IMG/VR virus record: IMGVR_UViG_2713896899_000017
Strand: one strand, 5' to 3'
DNA from: a virus
Lineage: Duplodnaviria > Heunggongvirae > Uroviricota > Caudoviricetes
DNA: 23,996 bases
The notes under the pieces are model-generated. The model was given only the letters and a program-made list of their open reading frames with translations. It was not told the DNA's origin and made no database searches. Positions 1-11,083 of the stretch are shown here, one piece after another (position 1 is the stretch's first letter; the number at the start of each line of letters is the position of its first letter). The position numbers and the translations under genes were made by a program.

Positions 1-1053
1 TTACGGGGTAATGCCAACCGCTGCCGCCACTTTGTCGCCACTTGGCAGCGTTGCCAGAGGATTGAAACGGAGCGCCGTTTCCAGATGATCCGGTGCCAGA
101 TGTGCGTAACGCATAGTCATTTTTATATCGTGGTGTCCGAGAATTTTTTGTAAGGCCAGAATGTTTCCACCCGACATCATGAAGTGCGCCGCAAACGTAT
201 GGCGCAGAACGTGTGTGAGTTGACCGCGAGGGAGCACGATAGACGTTTTTTCCATCACGGATAAAAATTGAAAATAGCAGTCTGTGAAGAAATTGAACCC
301 ATCAAGCGCCATGATCTCTTCGTAAAGCTCTTTACTGATAGGGATGCTTCTGTTTTTCTTCCCCTTCGTTCTTACAAAGGTAATTCGGTATTTGGTCACC
401 TGTGAACGAGTAAGATTTACGGCTTCTCGCCAGCGTGCGCCTGTGCTTAAGCATATCTTAACTACCAGTGCCAGAATTGGGTCCTGACGTTTGCAATCAG
501 CCAGTAATTCAACAATCTGCTCATGGGTAAGCCATGCCATCTCTTTTTCTGCGATGGTGAATTTTCGCATGTTCTCCAGTGGGTTCGGATACGACCATTC
601 GCCCAGGCGGGATAGTTCGCTAAAAACACTACTTAGATAGCTTTGCTCCAGGTTAATGGTGACCGGGCTTGCTCCTTTCTTCCATTTCTCGCTGAAGTAG
701 ATCTCACCTGTCAGGCGTTTATCTCGATAGTGGGCAAACATTTTAGAGGTTAGATCAGTTGCAAGGGGATTGCCCAGAGCGTCAACCATCAGCAGCAATT
801 TGTCATAGACATGCTGCCCAGCAGTCAGTGATTTACCATGTAGTTTGAACCATAGCTCAACCACGTCTTTCAGTGTTCGACGATCCACTGATTCACCTAG
901 CCAGGGCTTTGCTTCGGTTTCTTCCATCGTGTGACGCTCAAAAGCCAGTGCTTCGCCTTTGGTGTCGAATTGTTTACGCACACGACGCCCACTACGTCCG
1001 GCGGGGTAACATTCGCAAAGCCATTTTCCTGTGGTGAGTTTTCGTACAGCCAT
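1..1053 (-). CDS. int: Phage integrase, tyrosine recombinase (P2/186 Int family)
   Basis: Translation from the internal Met (MAVRKLTTGKWLCECYPAGRSGRRVRKQFDTKGEALAFERH...) has a P2/186 Int-like N-terminus and a C-terminal catalytic region (HVLRHTFAAHFMMSGGNILALQKILGHHDIKMTMRYAHL). GGAGG-like RBS precedes the ATG at 1053; stop codon is at 1-3. Confidence 0.9.
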   Translation of the reverse strand: MAVRKLTTGKWLCECYPAGRSGRRVRKQFDTKGEALAFERHTMEETEAKPWLGESVDRRTLKDVVELWFKLHGKSLTAGQHVYDKLLLMVDALGNPLATDLTSKMFAHYRDKRLTGEIYFSEKWKKGASPVTINLEQSYLSSVFSELSRLGEWSYPNPLENMRKFTIAEKEMAWLTHEQIVELLADCKRQDPILALVVKICLSTGARWREAVNLTRSQVTKYRITFVRTKGKKNRSIPISKELYEEIMALDGFNFFTDCYFQFLSVMEKTSIVLPRGQLTHVLRHTFAAHFMMSGGNILALQKILGHHDIKMTMRYAHLAPDHLETALRFNPLATLPSGDKVAAAVGITP

Positions 1054-1241
1054 AAAAAATGCCCTCCAATAGAGAGCATTTTTACTGTATGTATAACCAG
1101 TGTCAATGTATGAAATCCTGCGACCATACATCTCACTGAAGCCATAATGAAGTAGGCTATTCTTTTTGCTATGTGATCATGTAACTTTTGCGGTTAACCT
1201 GTGGCTCATTTTTATTTTAGGCGCAGATATAAAAGCAAAAG

Positions 1242-1433
1242 TTATCGTGAGTTTTTAGTACAGATTTTTTTGGATTTACTAATAGTTCCATCATTGCAAA
1301 CGAATTTGCCATCAGAGGTACAGTGAGAAACACCTCCCTTTTTCCCTGAGCAGGGATAATTTCTAGCATAGGTAGCTAGTGGGTTTAATAACAAAGAACA
1401 TGACAAAACCACAAAAAATACCTTACCAAGCAT
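1242..1433 (-). CDS. Small secreted cysteine-rich protein (about 63 aa; signal peptide plus about 40-aa mature part with 4 Cys); moron between cI and int
   Basis: Strong RBS (GGGAGGAAATT) 5 nt upstream of the ATG at 1433. N-terminal hydrophobic signal-like segment [23 protein letters not shown], then a Cys-rich polar region. AT-rich relative to flanking int and cI. Confidence 0.55.
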
Positions 1434-1448
1434 AATTTCCTCCCGGTA

Positions 1449-2018
1449 CTATTTAACATACTTGACTGTTAAACTTATAATTTTACCAATTATTTCAATG
1501 TCTTCTATCTTACATTCAAAGGCTCTGTTTCCACCCTCGACGAAGATTCTTCCACCGGGTAAACGAGTAATGTCACGGATCGTTATTTCGCCATCAATAC
1601 TTATTACCCATTTACCATCACGTATATCATCAAATTCCTTATCACAAATAAATTCAGAATTATTATCTGTGATTACAAAAAGATTCTTGAATGCCGACGG
1701 TAGAAATTCTCTATCGAAAATATAAAAACCGTCTTCACACAAGGCCCCATCAGATAATACATATTTAGCAACTTCCATAGTATTTGTATTACCTGAAGTT
1801 TGCTTTGAACCATGCCCGGTTGTGAGCCAATTAAGCGAGGTGCCTGTTTCAAGGGCGCACTGGATTACCCATTCTGCTGGGAATGAGTCACGCATGTAGC
1901 GTGTGGCGAGTGTACTTTTAGAGATTCCTAAATGATCGCACAACGCCTGTCGAGTCTTGAATCCATAAGCTTCTACCATGCGCTCTATGGCGCCTCGTCC
2001 GCCTTTCTCCAAATTCAT
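1449..2018 (-). CDS. cI: Phage 186 CI-type immunity repressor
   Basis: About 190 aa, with N-terminal HTH-like segment (YGFKTRQALCDHLGISKSTLATRYMRDSFPAEW...ALETGTSLNWLTTG). Sits upstream of int on the same strand and divergent from apl/cII, as in 186. ATG at 2018 is preceded by GGAG; the ORF track starts at an in-frame GTG at 2024. Confidence 0.8.
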   Translation of the reverse strand: MNLEKGGRGAIERMVEAYGFKTRQALCDHLGISKSTLATRYMRDSFPAEWVIQCALETGTSLNWLTTGHGSKQTSGNTNTMEVAKYVLSDGALCEDGFYIFDREFLPSAFKNLFVITDNNSEFICDKEFDDIRDGKWVISIDGEITIRDITRLPGGRIFVEGGNRAFECKIEDIEIIGKIISLTVKYVK

Positions 2019-2143
2019 GGTCACTCCAAGTGAACTTTTATCTTGACGATTTCACCATGCGATCGTATGTTTATGGTGTTCACAAAATACAAACGATCCG
2101 TATTCGTCCTGATTAATCATCATTAAACGAGGAATGTTGCATC
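2019..2143. promoter_or_regulatory. Lysis/lysogeny switch region between cI and apl (expected pR/pL promoters and operators)
   Basis: Intergenic region between divergently oriented cI and apl; in 186 it carries face-to-face pR and pL. Exact promoter and operator positions not resolved by eye. Confidence 0.5.
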
Positions 2144-8067: not shown

Positions 8068-8283
8068 ATGTCAAGCATCGCCGCATTTAGCCTGGGTAAC
8101 CCAGTTGAACGTCTGGCAAGGGTTCTTAAAGAGAACCAGGACAAACTCAATCTTAGTAAAGATGGTTTTGTGTCCGTAGACTTGTCTAACAAAAGAGCAA
8201 TGGATGCCATCAAGGCACAGATGGATAAGCTTGAAGGCATCAAAACGAGCACTGTAAAAGAGAAAACTAATAGAACCAGATAA
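8068..8283 (+). CDS. Small soluble protein (71 aa), first gene of a two-gene accessory operon
   Basis: Strong RBS AAGGAGGAG 3-4 nt before the ATG at 8068; no TM segment; stop overlaps the start of the next gene by 1 nt (TAATG). No recognisable family. Confidence 0.6.
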   Translation: MSSIAAFSLGNPVERLARVLKENQDKLNLSKDGFVSVDLSNKRAMDAIKAQMDKLEGIKTSTVKEKTNRTR

Positions 8284-9125
8284 TGGCAACATTACTTTTA
8301 GCAGTGATTTTGGTTAGTGGTTTTATTTATGTAAACCTATCACTTTCAACAAGATACCGATATAAGCGTTCCAACGGCTGGGACGCTTATTTTTTTGTGG
8401 CTGCCTGGGGTATCGTTTTTTTTCTCCTTGGCGGTTTTTTCACCTTTATTTTGAACGTCAGCGGAGGGTTTCGTTGGCTGGCGAATGCCTTGAATCTAAC
8501 ACCTGACAGTTTTAATGGCATGTTGTCTTCATCGAAAGACAAACTTCAAAGAATAAATGAAATCAAACAGATAGCATGGGTTATGATTTCAATTGTCCTC
8601 GCTGCGATTTCAGGTTTTGGAAATAAGTTACGCACATCACGTGGAGATCGTCGCTGGGATGCCTTAGCTAAAGCTGTGGGTAATAACGCTTTCGAATCAT
8701 TACTCATGGAAGCGTCCGCAAGACAGTTTCCGATCATAGCAACTCTGTCGTCTCGCAAAATCTATGTTGGTCTTGTTACTTGTCCGGCGTTAGAAAACGG
8801 GCTTTCAGAGCACCTTGAACTTCTCCCGATGTTAAGCGGATATCGGGATAAAGATGATCTAACGATTAGTATCACGACTAACTATCACCAACATTATCTT
8901 GATAGTGGTGTGATAAGTGGAATGTCTCGGCTTAATATCGAAGATTTCCGTGTGCTCATACCAAAAGATGAGGTTGAAACAATTTCGTTTTTTGATACTG
9001 AGACATATAACAAATTTAAAGAAAATGAAGCCAGGGATAGAAAGAACTGTCGAAAGATTGGTAGTAAAAGTGCATCTTCGCGCAGCAAGCGTGCAGCAGA
9101 TGCTGAGTCAAATGATCGTGCATGA
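8283..9125 (+). CDS. Membrane protein with three predicted TM helices and a roughly 165-aa soluble C-terminal domain ending in a basic tail; unknown function
   Basis: Hydrophobic segments TLLLAVILVSGFIYVNL, YFFVAAWGIVFFLLGGFFTFILNV and IAWVMISIVLAAISGFG; translationally coupled to the upstream small ORF; followed by a rho-independent terminator. Confidence 0.6.
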   Translation: MATLLLAVILVSGFIYVNLSLSTRYRYKRSNGWDAYFFVAAWGIVFFLLGGFFTFILNVSGGFRWLANALNLTPDSFNGMLSSSKDKLQRINEIKQIAWVMISIVLAAISGFGNKLRTSRGDRRWDALAKAVGNNAFESLLMEASARQFPIIATLSSRKIYVGLVTCPALENGLSEHLELLPMLSGYRDKDDLTISITTNYHQHYLDSGVISGMSRLNIEDFRVLIPKDEVETISFFDTETYNKFKENEARDRKNCRKIGSKSASSRSKRAADAESNDRA

Positions 9126-9328: not shown

Positions 9329-11083
9329 GTGGCCTCAGTGGAACTGCAAGCAAATGCTCGAACCTTAACAAACGTGTTATCTGTAAATAAAAAATATATA
9401 GTCCCTAGATTCCAAAGAGAATATTCTTGGGGGAAGGAACAAGTAAGTGAACTTTGGCATGATATAGTTTCCAATATTCATTACCAGGAGGATGGGCAGT
9501 ATCAATATGATGAGTATTTCATCGGTGCTCTCGTTTTGGTCGGGCAGGAAACTAGCTCTGAGCTGATGATTGTAGATGGTCAACAACGTCTTACGACTCT
9601 TACTATATTGTTATCAGCATTATGTGATAAATTTAAGTTGATAAATGAGTTGGCTGTAGCTCAATCAATATATAATAATTATATATCTGGTATGGATGAC
9701 GATGGCAGACCTTTTTTTAAATTAGTTAATGAAACTCCTAAGCCATACTTTCAAAACAACATTCAGCATATTGATAAGAGAAATGAAGGACCGGAGTCCC
9801 TTGAAGAAAGAAACTTGCAATCTTCATATAATGATTTAACTGAGTATCTTTCAGAAGATAATCTTTGCCAGACATTAGGAGTAGATAGAGAGAAATTTAT
9901 CTACTTGGAAGCGTTGAAGGCTGTGCGGGATCAAGTTCTACGGTATCTGAAAGTGATTTATATTACAGTTAATGATGAAGATGAAGCTTATACAATCTTT
10001 GAAACTCTGAATGCTAGGGGATTAAACTTAAGTTATGTAGATCTTATAAAAAACAAATTATTTAAGAAACTGAATGGCACACATCCTGATGATGATGCAA
10101 AAACTAAATGGAATAAAATTAGGCAAATAATTGCTAGTCGTAATGGTGTCGGTTCTATCGAGACATTTATCCGTCATTGGTGGGTGTCAAAATATTCTTA
10201 TGTAAGTAGTGACACTCTTTATAAAGCTTTTCTGGATAAGTGGAAAAAAGGCGACATTGATGCTTCAGCGTTCATTGATGAGCTACTTTCAGATGCCGAG
10301 ATATATGTGAAAATATCATCGCCTACAGAACAGGATTTTCCTGAACTGGAAATGAAACCAGTTTATCGAGGTTTGCAGGCATTAAGGCTGTTTAACATAT
10401 CTCAGAATAAACCATTTTTGTTATCTTTATTTAAGGCAAGAGCAAGAGGAACGCTAAAACTTGTTGATATGAATAATGCAGTGCTGTCAATTGAACGCTT
10501 TCATTTTATGTTTAATGCTATTTGTTCATTGCGACCATCAGGTATTGAAAGTGCGTATGCTAAAGCTGCTAGGGCTTTAGTGGATGAAGGTTCTACTAAA
10601 GCTAGTAATAGACAAGTAATAAAGTCTTTGCTTGAAATGTTGGTGAAGAGAAAACCAGACATTAATATGTTTGTTGAAAAGTTTGTTATGCTTAAATTTT
10701 CAAATCAAGAGTTGAAAAATAAAAGGTTGATTCAGTACATTTTTAATAGACTTGAGTTACATCACATGAAAACGGGGGAGTATATGCCTGATTCATTAAC
10801 ATTAGAGCATATTCAGCCTCAGAGTGTGGGGGATTCTGAAGTATATAGCATGATAGGAAATTTATTACCACTTTCAAAAGAATTAAATGAAAAAGCTGGA
10901 AATAAGTCTGTTGTGGATAAGCTTGAAATTTATAAACAATCACAATATGCGCTAGTTAAAATTTTTATTGATGAATTTGAAAATAAATATCAAGGAGAAT
11001 GGACGCCCGATCATATGAGGTCAAGAGCTGCTGAACTAAGTATTTTATCGTATAATTCAGTATGGAAATTGGGGCGTGAGTAA
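9329..11083 (+). CDS. DUF262/DUF1524 two-domain protein (GmrSD-like type IV, modification-dependent restriction endonuclease family)
   Basis: N-terminal DUF262 signatures (PRFQREYSWG, IVDGQQRLTTL) and C-terminal His-Me/HNH-like region (LTLEHIQPQS ... NEKAGNKSVVDK). Strongly AT-rich. GTG start at 9329 per ORF track; an AGGTGG RBS favours the in-frame GTG at 9338. Confidence 0.7.
   Translation: MASVELQANARTLTNVLSVNKKYIVPRFQREYSWGKEQVSELWHDIVSNIHYQEDGQYQYDEYFIGALVLVGQETSSELMIVDGQQRLTTLTILLSALCDKFKLINELAVAQSIYNNYISGMDDDGRPFFKLVNETPKPYFQNNIQHIDKRNEGPESLEERNLQSSYNDLTEYLSEDNLCQTLGVDREKFIYLEALKAVRDQVLRYLKVIYITVNDEDEAYTIFETLNARGLNLSYVDLIKNKLFKKLNGTHPDDDAKTKWNKIRQIIASRNGVGSIETFIRHWWVSKYSYVSSDTLYKAFLDKWKKGDIDASAFIDELLSDAEIYVKISSPTEQDFPELEMKPVYRGLQALRLFNISQNKPFLLSLFKARARGTLKLVDMNNAVLSIERFHFMFNAICSLRPSGIESAYAKAARALVDEGSTKASNRQVIKSLLEMLVKRKPDINMFVEKFVMLKFSNQELKNKRLIQYIFNRLELHHMKTGEYMPDSLTLEHIQPQSVGDSEVYSMIGNLLPLSKELNEKAGNKSVVDKLEIYKQSQYALVKIFIDEFENKYQGEWTPDHMRSRAAELSILSYNSVWKLGRE

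What the first reader, a model, noticed from the sequence alone, without database searches (positions are those of the whole stretch)
1242..1433. Secreted cysteine-rich mini-protein inserted between cI and int in the lysogenic operon
In 186, cI and int are co-transcribed from pL. Here an extra 63-aa ORF with an excellent RBS (GGGAGGAAATT), a signal-peptide-like N-terminus and a roughly 40-aa mature part containing four cysteines is wedged between them in an AT-rich patch. A gene in this operon would be expressed constitutively in the lysogen, the classic position of a lysogenic-conversion or superinfection-exclusion factor. A small disulfide-bonded periplasmic or secreted peptide there is unusual.
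Basis: partly seen in the sequence, partly recalled or inferred. Interest (0 to 1): 0.55.

Follow-up and report, generated by a model that had tools for sequence, protein, structure and literature searches.

The report
Prophage YdcA-family secreted mini-protein gene
The small gene after the prophage repressor is real and belongs to the widespread YdcA family of exported, disulfide-bonded mini-proteins; its function is untested, and my best guess is that it interferes with foreign DNA in the cell envelope.

Summary
The 63-aa ORF at 1242-1433 (minus strand) is a real gene. It scores above the curated cutoff of NCBIfam NF007463 (YdcA family) and matches phrog_6000. It is under strong purifying selection (pN/pS 0.05). 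About 590 of 5,426 complete E. coli genomes carry it, where RefSeq calls it "hypothetical" or "YdcA family protein".

It has a Sec-type signal peptide and a 40-aa, pI 9.7 mature part with four conserved cysteines. It starts 15 nt after a 186-type cI, whereas in phage 186 cI and int overlap.

The order cI, ydcA-like gene, int recurs in Yersinia, Buttiauxella and Pasteurellaceae prophages. It also occurs in Haemophilus phage HP2, where the gene is unannotated and overlaps the cI stop codon. In relatives the same slot holds other cargo, including a defence candidate (PDC-S20) and a Sie-like protein.

The function is unknown experimentally. The domain is fused or adjacent to three unrelated secreted nuclease families and weakly resembles Legionella T4SS subunit Dis2.

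Best guess (about 0.4): a periplasmic factor made in the lysogen that binds DNA or a related phosphorylated polyanion and interferes with incoming foreign DNA.

Its claim that such a gene is "unusual" there is not. Interest is moderate.

The parts
1242..1433 (-). YdcA-family gene: 63-aa precursor plus stop codon
   Evidence: ORF list. NCBIfam NF007463 scores 114.6 bits against a cutoff of 93. phrog_6000 E 3e-34. The identical protein P0001 carries precomputed PF27300. pN/pS is 0.05.
1365..1433 (-). Predicted Sec signal peptide, residues 1-23, with cleavage after T-Y-A
   Evidence: Hydropathy profile. AF2 predicts a helix at residues 3-15. In 43 homologues the N-termini diverge while Ala at -1 is at least 90% conserved and the mature part is nearly invariant. 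SignalP was not available.
1245..1364 (-). Mature 40-aa, Lys-rich domain with four cysteines (pI 9.7, net charge +7)
   Evidence: Invariant motif PCSGxKGG[VI]xxC...F[VI]CxDG[TS]xSxSKxxC. AF2 pLDDT is 85-91 with a beta-hairpin at 35-38 and 44-46.
1438..1444 (-). Shine-Dalgarno GGGAGGA in the 15-nt cI-ORF spacer
   Evidence: Read directly from the sequence.
1449..2024 (-). 186-type CI repressor gene, 33% identical to 186 CI
   Evidence: Pfam Phage_CI_repr and Phage_CI_C. BLASTP against 186 CI.
1114..1448 (-). Variable cargo slot of this prophage lineage; here it holds the ydcA-like gene and its 3' untranslated region
   Evidence: Alignment of cargo variants. Other cargo occupies the slot in CFT073, WGI31CT, FDAARGOS_1251 and Klebsiella phage 4LV2017.
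1177..1250 (-). Long hairpin that begins at the ORF stop codon
   Evidence: RNA fold of 1040-1250, z -5.7. It has no following T-run. By eye, the two substitutions in the E. coli B allele within the stem look disruptive rather than compensatory. Its function is unknown.
1054..1113 (-). Conserved int leader: promoter-like TTGACA-17-AAAAAT (1106..1078) and a hairpin at 1055-1083 that sequesters the int SD, flanked by A5 and U6
   Evidence: Promoter scan. Fold dG -20.8 kcal/mol, z -6.7. The block is nearly identical across all cargo variants and is also matched in Klebsiella phages.
1..1053 (-). Tyrosine integrase gene
   Evidence: Pfam Int_N and Phage_integrase. RefSeq annotates a 350-aa integrase in near-identical prophages.

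Best explanation
This is a genuine accessory gene (a moron) of a 186-like prophage and a member of the YdcA family. The steps below are ordered from best to least supported.

1. Transcription (inferred from anatomy, about 0.85). The gene is transcribed with cI from the lysogenic promoter and translated from its own strong SD, so it is made continuously in the lysogen.

2. Export and folding (inferred from sequence and family conservation, about 0.85). The precursor is exported by Sec and cleaved after Ala23. The 40-aa mature peptide folds in the periplasm into a small beta-hairpin domain held by two disulfides.

3. Molecular activity (inference, about 0.4). The conserved SGxKGG loop and SxSK motif, within a strongly cationic peptide, bind a phosphorylated polyanion. 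DNA is the most likely ligand, because the same domain is fused or adjacent to three unrelated families of secreted nucleases.

4. Role in the lysogen (inference, about 0.25-0.3). By binding DNA, or the site where DNA crosses the envelope, the protein interferes with foreign DNA entering the cell from superinfecting phages, conjugation or transformation. It would then be an exclusion-type factor that benefits the prophage.

The overall confidence given (0.4) refers to steps 3 and 4 as a package. That the ORF is a real, exported YdcA-family gene coupled to cI is above 0.9.
For: Real gene: NF007463 scores above its cutoff; phrog_6000; PF27300 is recorded on the identical protein; there are 11 synonymous against 2 non-synonymous differences between alleles, both changes at the signal peptide or cleavage site; 590 of 5,426 E. 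coli genomes carry it; at least 537 IMG/VR contigs encode a relative.

Coupling to cI: the gap is 15 nt with GGGAGGA. In HP2 the ATG overlaps the cI stop as TAATG. The gap ranges from -4 to +47 nt in Pasteurellaceae and in two of the three Yersinia prophages, whose cI is only 31-39% identical. CI_repr is the commonest upstream neighbour and integrase the commonest downstream neighbour among about 75 species-level loci.

Export: the N-termini vary, Ala at -1 is conserved, and the mature part is nearly invariant; hydropathy profile.

Link to DNA: among 42 long family representatives the only enzymatic partners are Endonuclease_NS (5), SNase (3) and PLDc_2 (1). SNase genes lie directly next to ydcA-like genes in 6 of 80 species-level loci, and a fusion to Endonuclease_NS occurs in L110. 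In HP2 the next gene encodes a secreted OB-fold (tRNA_anti-like) protein that also matches the 'Sie-like' phrog_8545. The mature peptide has net charge +7 and stand-alone family members have a median of +4.

Exclusion context: the same slot holds a PDC-S20 KAP NTPase in FDAARGOS_1251. The family is enriched on phages and on small mobilizable plasmids. The integrase-to-primase region of P2-like phages is a described minor defence hotspot (PMC13586616).
Against: - There are no experimental data on this protein or on any family member's biochemistry. K-12 ydcA is described as of unknown function, with only a 3-hydroxypropionate/acid-related phenotype (PMC7642389).
- There is no PADLOC hit and no similarity to known Sie proteins.
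- In the nuclease fusions the domain is not cationic (net charge -1 to +4). Simple electrostatic DNA binding is therefore not a property of the domain as such, and it could instead be a localisation module.
- The only solved possible relative, Dis2, is a structural subunit next to the outer membrane and is not known to touch DNA (PMC8486379).
- Phage genomes are usually thought to cross the periplasm inside a protected conduit, which a soluble binder might not reach (background knowledge).
- Most family members (about 85% of species-level loci) have no phage or nuclease neighbour.
Confidence: 0.4

Rival explanations
1. Envelope adaptor. The domain is a small module proximal to the outer membrane that docks on lipoproteins, peptidoglycan-associated proteins or the inner leaflet, as Dis2 does in the Dot/Icm outer-membrane cap. 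In nuclease fusions it only tethers the enzyme to the envelope. The prophage copy would alter an envelope structure such as a receptor, a secretion or uptake machine, or envelope stress tolerance, rather than bind DNA.
For: - The best PDB sequence hit, and the rank-1 Foldseek hit of the single-domain model, is Dis2/Lpg0823; hhalign gives 70% probability with 46% identity over 26 columns.
- Dis2 contacts DotK, DotC and DotD next to the outer membrane (PMC12716638).
- The nuclease-fused domains are near neutral.
- Deleting K-12 ydcA sensitises cells to 3-HP or acid stress (PMC7642389).
Against: - Dis2 lacks the conserved basic SxSKK motif.
- The window contains no T4SS.
- An anchoring role does not by itself explain why nucleases are the only enzymatic partners.
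Confidence: 0.3
2. General stress or physiology factor. It would do the same job as the chromosomal ydcA paralogue, such as acid or organic-acid tolerance, and the prophage carries it as a fitness gene for the host without any role in phage or MGE competition.
For: - The mature domain is about 79% identical to E. coli matches that are probably the host's own ydcA.
- NF007462, which I take from memory to be the K-12 YdcA model, matches at 68.5 bits.
- A ydcA deletion phenotype and YdcI/acid regulation have been reported (PMC7642389).
Against: - The phenotype is weak and indirect.
- It does not explain the long-standing linkage to cI in phages of different host families, nor the presence on small plasmids and in phage moron clusters.
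Confidence: 0.1
3. Secreted bioactive peptide. A cationic, disulfide-stabilised peptide, defensin- or bacteriocin-like or a protease inhibitor, that acts on competitors or on the animal host.
For: - The peptide is 40 aa, net charge +7, with four cysteines.
- Weak matches to Pin-II proteinase inhibitors, E 0.23-1.8.
- A YdcA-family gene was flagged among genes associated with antimicrobial activity in Pseudomonas protegens (PMC13541209).
Against: - The Pin-II matches are not significant, and the eight-cysteine Pin-II pattern is absent.
- There is no immunity, export or processing partner gene nearby.
- A Sec signal alone takes the peptide only as far as the periplasm.
- The Pseudomonas association is correlative only.
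Confidence: 0.08
4. Neutral passenger. The gene hitch-hikes with the cI immunity module and does nothing useful for phage or host.
For: The AT-rich patch spans both the cI C-terminal half and the ORF, which suggests they move as one block. No phenotype is known.
Against: pN/pS is 0.05. The mature domain is nearly invariant across Alpha-, Beta- and Gammaproteobacteria. The gene has been gained or retained repeatedly next to very divergent cI genes.
Confidence: 0.05

Closest known systems
E. coli K-12 YdcA and the YdcA family (NCBIfam PRK10040 group NF007462-NF007464; Pfam PF27300; phrog_6000)
   Same: Same architecture: a Sec signal peptide followed by a mature domain of about 35-40 aa with four invariant cysteines and the PCSGxKGG...FVCxDG.xSxSK motif. 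The window protein scores above the curated cutoff of NF007463.
   Different: It belongs to the prophage-borne subgroup (NF007463), not the subgroup I take to be the chromosomal K-12 one (NF007462 scores 68.5 bits, below its cutoff of 118). It is expressed from a phage lysogeny operon. The whole family has no established function.
Legionella pneumophila Dis2 (Lpg0823), a Dot/Icm T4SS outer-membrane-cap subunit (PDB 7MUC/7MUD)
   Same: An exported, disulfide-rich small protein. It shares the motif C-x-K-x-GG-[IV]-x-x-C ... G-x-[FL]-VCN-[DN]-G. It is the top Foldseek hit of the single-domain model.
   Different: Dis2 has two lobes pinned by five disulfides, lacks the basic SxSKK tail, and is a stoichiometric T4SS subunit. 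The similarity is borderline (hhalign 70%, Foldseek E 0.68). The literature calls Dis2 Legionella-specific with no structural neighbours (PMC8486379, PMC12716638).
Periplasmic or envelope superinfection-exclusion factors made by phages (T4 Spackle and Imm, P22 SieA, HK97 gp15; HP2 orf1, which matches the 'Sie-like' phrog_8545)
   Same: A small exported protein, encoded by the phage and positioned to act on incoming phage. In HP2 the ydcA-like gene lies directly upstream of a Sie-like gene in the same lysogenic operon.
   Different: No sequence or profile similarity to any of them. The exclusion phenotype is untested. The statements about T4, P22 and HK97 are from background knowledge.
Lysogenic-conversion and defence cargo of P2-like phages (old, tin, fun/Z; hotspots described by Rousset et al. 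2022, PMC9122126, and in PMC13586616)
   Same: A variable accessory gene in a recombination-prone slot of a P2/186-like prophage. The same slot holds a PDC-S20 defence candidate in a sister prophage.
   Different: The classical hotspots lie between gpA and gpQ and within the tail genes. The cI-int slot falls in the minor integrase-to-primase region. The product is extracytoplasmic, unlike Old or Tin (background knowledge).

Membership tests
YdcA family (NCBIfam NF007463 / PRK10040.1-2) | Whole-protein HMM score at or above the curated cutoff | tested here: met
   114.6 bits against a cutoff of 93, E 1.3e-33, covering model positions 1-58 of 58.
YdcA family (Pfam PF27300 / phrog_6000) | Signal peptide plus a single short domain with four invariant Cys and the PCSGxKGG[VI]xxC...F[VI]CxDG[TS]xSxSKxxC motif | tested here: met
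   Alignments A1, A4 and A5. PF27300 is precomputed on the identical protein P0001. phrog_6000 E 3e-34. The local Pfam copy lacks PF27300, so the direct Pfam scan returned only noise.
Dis2 (Lpg0823)-like T4SS subunits | Significant sequence or structure similarity to Dis2 | tested here: inconclusive
   [not shown]
Dis2 (Lpg0823)-like T4SS subunits | Two tandem lobes with five disulfides, encoded in a genome with a Dot/Icm-type T4SS | tested here: not met
   The window protein has one lobe and four mature cysteines. The window is a P2/186-like prophage with no T4SS genes.
Lysogeny-operon moron (lysogenic-conversion gene) | Located in the repressor transcription unit, on the same strand, with no intervening promoter or terminator | tested here: met
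   15-nt gap after the cI stop. No terminator-like site on the minus strand between cI and the ORF, and no promoter-like site on the minus strand upstream of the ORF in the scanned 900-2200. The same arrangement occurs in HP2, Yersinia and Pasteurellaceae.
Lysogeny-operon moron (lysogenic-conversion gene) | Expressed in the lysogen and confers a phenotype on it | not testable with these tools
   Needs RNA-seq or RT-PCR, proteomics and deletion phenotypes.
Known anti-phage defence or superinfection-exclusion proteins (PADLOC; PHROG Sie families) | Profile match to a described defence or exclusion family | tested here: not met
   No PADLOC hit at E <= 0.01. The only significant PHROG hit (phrog_6000) and the two weak ones are of unknown function.
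Bacterial lipoproteins | Conserved lipobox [LVI][ASTVI][GAS]C at the end of the signal peptide | tested here: not met
   C12 is preceded by V-L-S and is not conserved among homologues, whereas an A-x-A-like site before residue 24 is.
Pin-II (potato type II) proteinase inhibitors | Significant similarity and the eight-cysteine repeat pattern | tested here: not met
   E-values of 0.23-1.8 only. The mature peptide has four cysteines.

The most novel reading that the evidence does not exclude
The YdcA/Dis2-type mini-domain is a previously unrecognised extracytoplasmic nucleic-acid-binding or DNA-entry-site-binding module. Temperate phages from Escherichia to Haemophilus keep a stand-alone copy translationally coupled to their CI repressor. 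It would act as a new kind of periplasmic exclusion factor against incoming DNA from phages, conjugation or transformation. If so, chromosomal ydcA and the 'Legionella-specific' T4SS subunit Dis2 would also gain a functional context.
Probability: 0.25. Interest if true: 0.7.

Novelty: new member of a known kind. Interest (0 to 1): 0.42.

Why it matters
If the exclusion idea holds, this would be a very small (4.3 kDa) soluble periplasmic factor of a new type, made in the lysogen and present in about a tenth of E. coli genomes and in many other Proteobacteria. It would also assign a function to the orphan YdcA family. The work yields several concrete leads:
- an unannotated gene in the reference genomes of Haemophilus phages HP2 and S2;
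- a cI-linked gene pair conserved across distant Peduoviridae;
- a possible relative outside Legionella for the T4SS subunit Dis2;
- a recurrent association of the domain with secreted nucleases.

If the idea fails, the gene is still a well-defined, easily tested prophage accessory gene of unknown function.

Tried and rejected
- **Local Pfam scan of the ORF.** It gave only a sub-threshold GULLO2-like hit, which is noise, because the local copy lacks PF27300.
- **PADLOC.** No hit.
- **Pin-II inhibitor and lectin matches in the PDB search.** Not significant, and rejected.
- **AF2 model of a two-lobed family member.** It was meant to test the Dis2 relationship, but the model was poor (pLDDT 67, pTM 0.31) and Dis2 fell to rank 45.
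- **Search with a Dis2 fragment to build a Dis2 profile.** No candidates.
- **Rfam on 950-1500.** Only a sub-threshold mir-153 hit, which is noise.
- **IMG/VR scan.** It returned 80 near-identical copies, which was useless for diversity.
- **Literature searches.** Searches for the RefSeq protein accessions and phrog_6000, and for PF27300, 'YdcA family' and PRK10040, found nothing functional. The search for HP2 papers was uninformative. The 'ydcA' of the gonococcal genetic island was not examined for homology; I assumed from background knowledge that the name is positional.
- **Lipoprotein reading of C12.** Rejected because the residue is not conserved.
- **Alignment of the pR/pL region to phage 186.** Too divergent to map pL, so the lysogenic promoter is inferred from architecture and not located.

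Full report
**1. Observation**

The window opens with the 3' end of a tyrosine integrase gene on the minus strand (stop at 1-3). RefSeq annotates a 350-aa integrase in near-identical prophages, so the start is at 1053. A 63-aa ORF lies at 1242-1433 and a 191-aa repressor gene at 1449-2024, both on the minus strand.

The repressor has the two Pfam domains of 186-type CI and is 33% identical to 186 CI.

The product has a hydrophobic N-terminus that ends in T-Y-A. The remaining 40 aa are hydrophilic, with pI 9.7, net charge +7 and four cysteines.

In phage 186 itself the cI stop and the int start overlap. About 395 bp are therefore extra here.

GC falls to 34-36% around the ORF. The AT-rich patch runs on to about 1800, so it also includes the C-terminal half of cI.

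**2. Is it a gene?**

Yes.
- It scores 114.6 bits against NCBIfam NF007463 (PRK10040.1-2, cutoff 93) and E 3e-34 against phrog_6000.
- The identical protein represents a cluster of 355 sequences seen on at least 1,000 contigs and carries precomputed Pfam PF27300. The local Pfam copy lacks that model, which explains the empty Pfam scan.
- The whole cI-int spacer is present in 590 of 5,426 complete E. coli genomes, where RefSeq labels the gene "hypothetical protein" or "YdcA family protein". This includes a defective prophage of the E. coli B lineage.
- The window allele and the B allele differ at 11 synonymous and 2 non-synonymous sites (pN/pS 0.05). Both amino-acid changes lie in the signal peptide or cleavage region.
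- Across 43 homologues the N-terminal 20-25 residues are free to vary, the Ala at -1 is conserved, and the mature part is nearly invariant. This is the usual signature of a cleaved Sec signal.
- Cys12 is not conserved and has no lipobox, so a lipoprotein is unlikely.

**3. Genomic setting**

The cI-int interval is a cargo slot in this prophage lineage, which is integrated next to rcdA.
- The window type carries only the ydcA-like gene.
- FDAARGOS_1251 carries the ydcA-like gene plus a KAP-family NTPase that matches the PADLOC candidate PDC-S20 at E 2e-171.
- CFT073 and WGI31CT carry an unrelated protein of about 323 aa.
- Klebsiella phage 4LV2017 carries a 349-aa protein.

The right-hand boundary of the slot is sharp. 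The 60 nt before the int ATG are nearly identical in all variants.

A recent survey lists the integrase-to-primase region of P2-like phages, which contains this slot, as a minor defence hotspot (PMC13586616).

**4. Linkage to cI is old or recurrent**

- In Haemophilus phage HP2, and by the same tblastn match in S2, an unannotated 60-aa homologue starts at the cI stop codon (TAATG). It is followed by orf1 and then int. Orf1 is a secreted protein with a tRNA_anti-like OB fold, and it also matches the 'superinfection exclusion Sie-like' phrog_8545.
- The order cI, ydcA-like gene, int also occurs in Yersinia alsatica, Y. aldovae and Y. nurmii, in Haemophilus parainfluenzae and in a Pasteurellaceae MAG. 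Their cI is only 31-39% identical to the window's. The cI-ORF gap is -4 to +47 nt in most of them, but about 213 nt by crude ORF calling in Y. nurmii.
- In Buttiauxella a 133-aa ORF lies between cI and the ydcA-like gene, and no int was detected downstream.
- Among about 75 species-level loci, 186-type CI is the commonest upstream neighbour (6) and integrase the commonest downstream neighbour (6). Otherwise there is no conserved partner.
- Elsewhere the gene sits in moron clusters with Ant genes in Moraxella and Acinetobacter phages, on 4-kb mobilizable Acinetobacter plasmids, and at many chromosomal sites in Alpha-, Beta- and Gammaproteobacteria.

**5. What the domain might do**

No experiment addresses this. 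K-12 ydcA is called "function unknown", with only a sensitivity phenotype to 3-hydroxypropionate and acid-linked regulation (PMC7642389).

Three computational clues exist.

(a) A profile search of 1.84 billion representatives found 330 clusters. Among the 42 longest listed members, the only enzymatic partner domains are secreted nucleases of three unrelated folds: Endonuclease_NS (5), SNase (3) and PLDc_2 (1). In the fusions whose sequences I inspected, the YdcA domain follows the signal peptide.

(b) SNase genes lie directly beside ydcA-like genes in 6 of 80 species-level loci.

(c) The best PDB match is Dis2/Lpg0823. This is a two-lobed, five-disulfide subunit of the Legionella Dot/Icm outer-membrane cap, which the literature treats as Legionella-specific and without structural neighbours (PMC8486379, PMC12716638).

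The Dis2 link is only probable.
- phmmer gives E 3.2e-5 for the whole protein, but the domain i-Evalue is 0.014.
- The profile search gives E 0.036.
- hhalign gives 70% probability with 46% identity over 26 columns.
- Foldseek ranks Dis2 first, but at E 0.68.

One caveat applies to a simple charge-based DNA-binding idea. The nuclease-fused domains are near neutral (net charge -1 to +4), whereas stand-alone members are basic (median +4; the window protein +7).

**6. Best explanation and rivals**

I commit to the following. It is a real accessory gene expressed in the lysogen and coupled to cI, and its exported, disulfide-stabilised product binds a phosphorylated polyanion. DNA is the most likely ligand given the nuclease associations. 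The product would interfere with foreign DNA entering through the envelope, giving an exclusion-type benefit that fits the defence and Sie-like cargo found in the same slot. I put about 0.4 on this mechanistic package. I put more than 0.9 on the gene being real, exported and in the YdcA family.

The main rival (0.3) is an envelope-adaptor role proximal to the outer membrane, like that of Dis2. Minor rivals are a general stress function shared with chromosomal ydcA, a secreted bioactive peptide or inhibitor, and a neutral passenger. The last is contradicted by the strong purifying selection.

**7. Novelty and verdict**

The ORF is already annotated in databases and has family models, so it is not a new kind of object. 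It is a prophage-borne member of a known family that has no assigned function.

I did not find the following points in the literature searched:
- the conserved coupling to cI across distant Peduoviridae;
- the missing annotation in HP2 and S2;
- the association of the domain with nucleases;
- the possible relationship to Dis2.

Interest is moderate (0.42). Its claim that the gene is unusual there is wrong.

Noticed in passing
window 1054-1113 (minus strand): A roughly 60-nt block just upstream of the int ATG is nearly identical in all cargo variants and is also matched in Klebsiella phages. It holds a promoter-like TTGACA-17-AAAAAT and a 13-bp hairpin (dG -20.8 kcal/mol, z -6.7) flanked by A5 and U6 that buries the int SD (GGAGGG). 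It could terminate or translationally silence read-through from cI, while a transcript starting inside the left arm would leave the SD free..
   Followed up: partly
window 1177-1250 (minus strand): A long hairpin starts at the ORF stop codon, and the whole 1040-1250 spacer folds with z -5.7. It has no T-run. By eye, the two substitutions in the E. coli B allele within the stem look disruptive rather than compensatory. Its role is unknown..
   Followed up: partly
[not shown]
   Followed up: yes
window 9329-11083 (+), and 8283-9125 (+): The 584-aa ORF matches PADLOC HEC-06 and Orf5 models (E 4e-90), with weaker SspE and type IV restriction matches. It lies in the classical P2 gpA-gpQ defence hotspot. 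The neighbouring 280-aa ORF has no PADLOC hit..
   Followed up: partly
L008 1142-2473 (E. coli FDAARGOS_1251): A sister prophage carries a KAP-family NTPase (PADLOC PDC-S20, E 2e-171) between its ydcA-like gene and int. CFT073 and WGI31CT carry an unrelated protein of about 323 aa with a weak DUF2207_C match, together with a longer CI of about 310 aa..
   Followed up: partly
P0170, P0225, P0195, P0108, P0184, P0226, P0130; loci L099, L102, L104, L110, L157, L163, L167: The YdcA-like domain is fused to Endonuclease_NS, SNase and PLD-type nucleases, and ydcA-like genes lie next to SNase genes in Brucella/Ochrobactrum, Microvirga and Rhizobium. Tandem forms with two or three copies exist (P0080-P0082)..
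   Followed up: yes
PDB 7MUC/7MUD chain AN (Legionella Dis2/Lpg0823): Dis2 is described as Legionella-specific with no structural neighbours. It shares the CxKxGG[IV]xxC...VCN[DN]G motif with the YdcA family, so it may be a tandem, diverged YdcA-type domain. The evidence is borderline..
   Followed up: partly
window 1453-1481 (+): A near-consensus sigma-70-like site (TTAACA-17-TATAAT, 11 of 12) points antisense into the 3' end of cI. The number of promoter-like sites in the region equals the shuffle expectation (4 against 4.0), so this may be AT-rich noise..
   Followed up: no
L170 (E. coli T7Express, B lineage): A defective prophage with truncated cII and replication genes still keeps intact int, ydcA-like and cI genes. 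This gives a convenient laboratory strain for testing expression..
   Followed up: no
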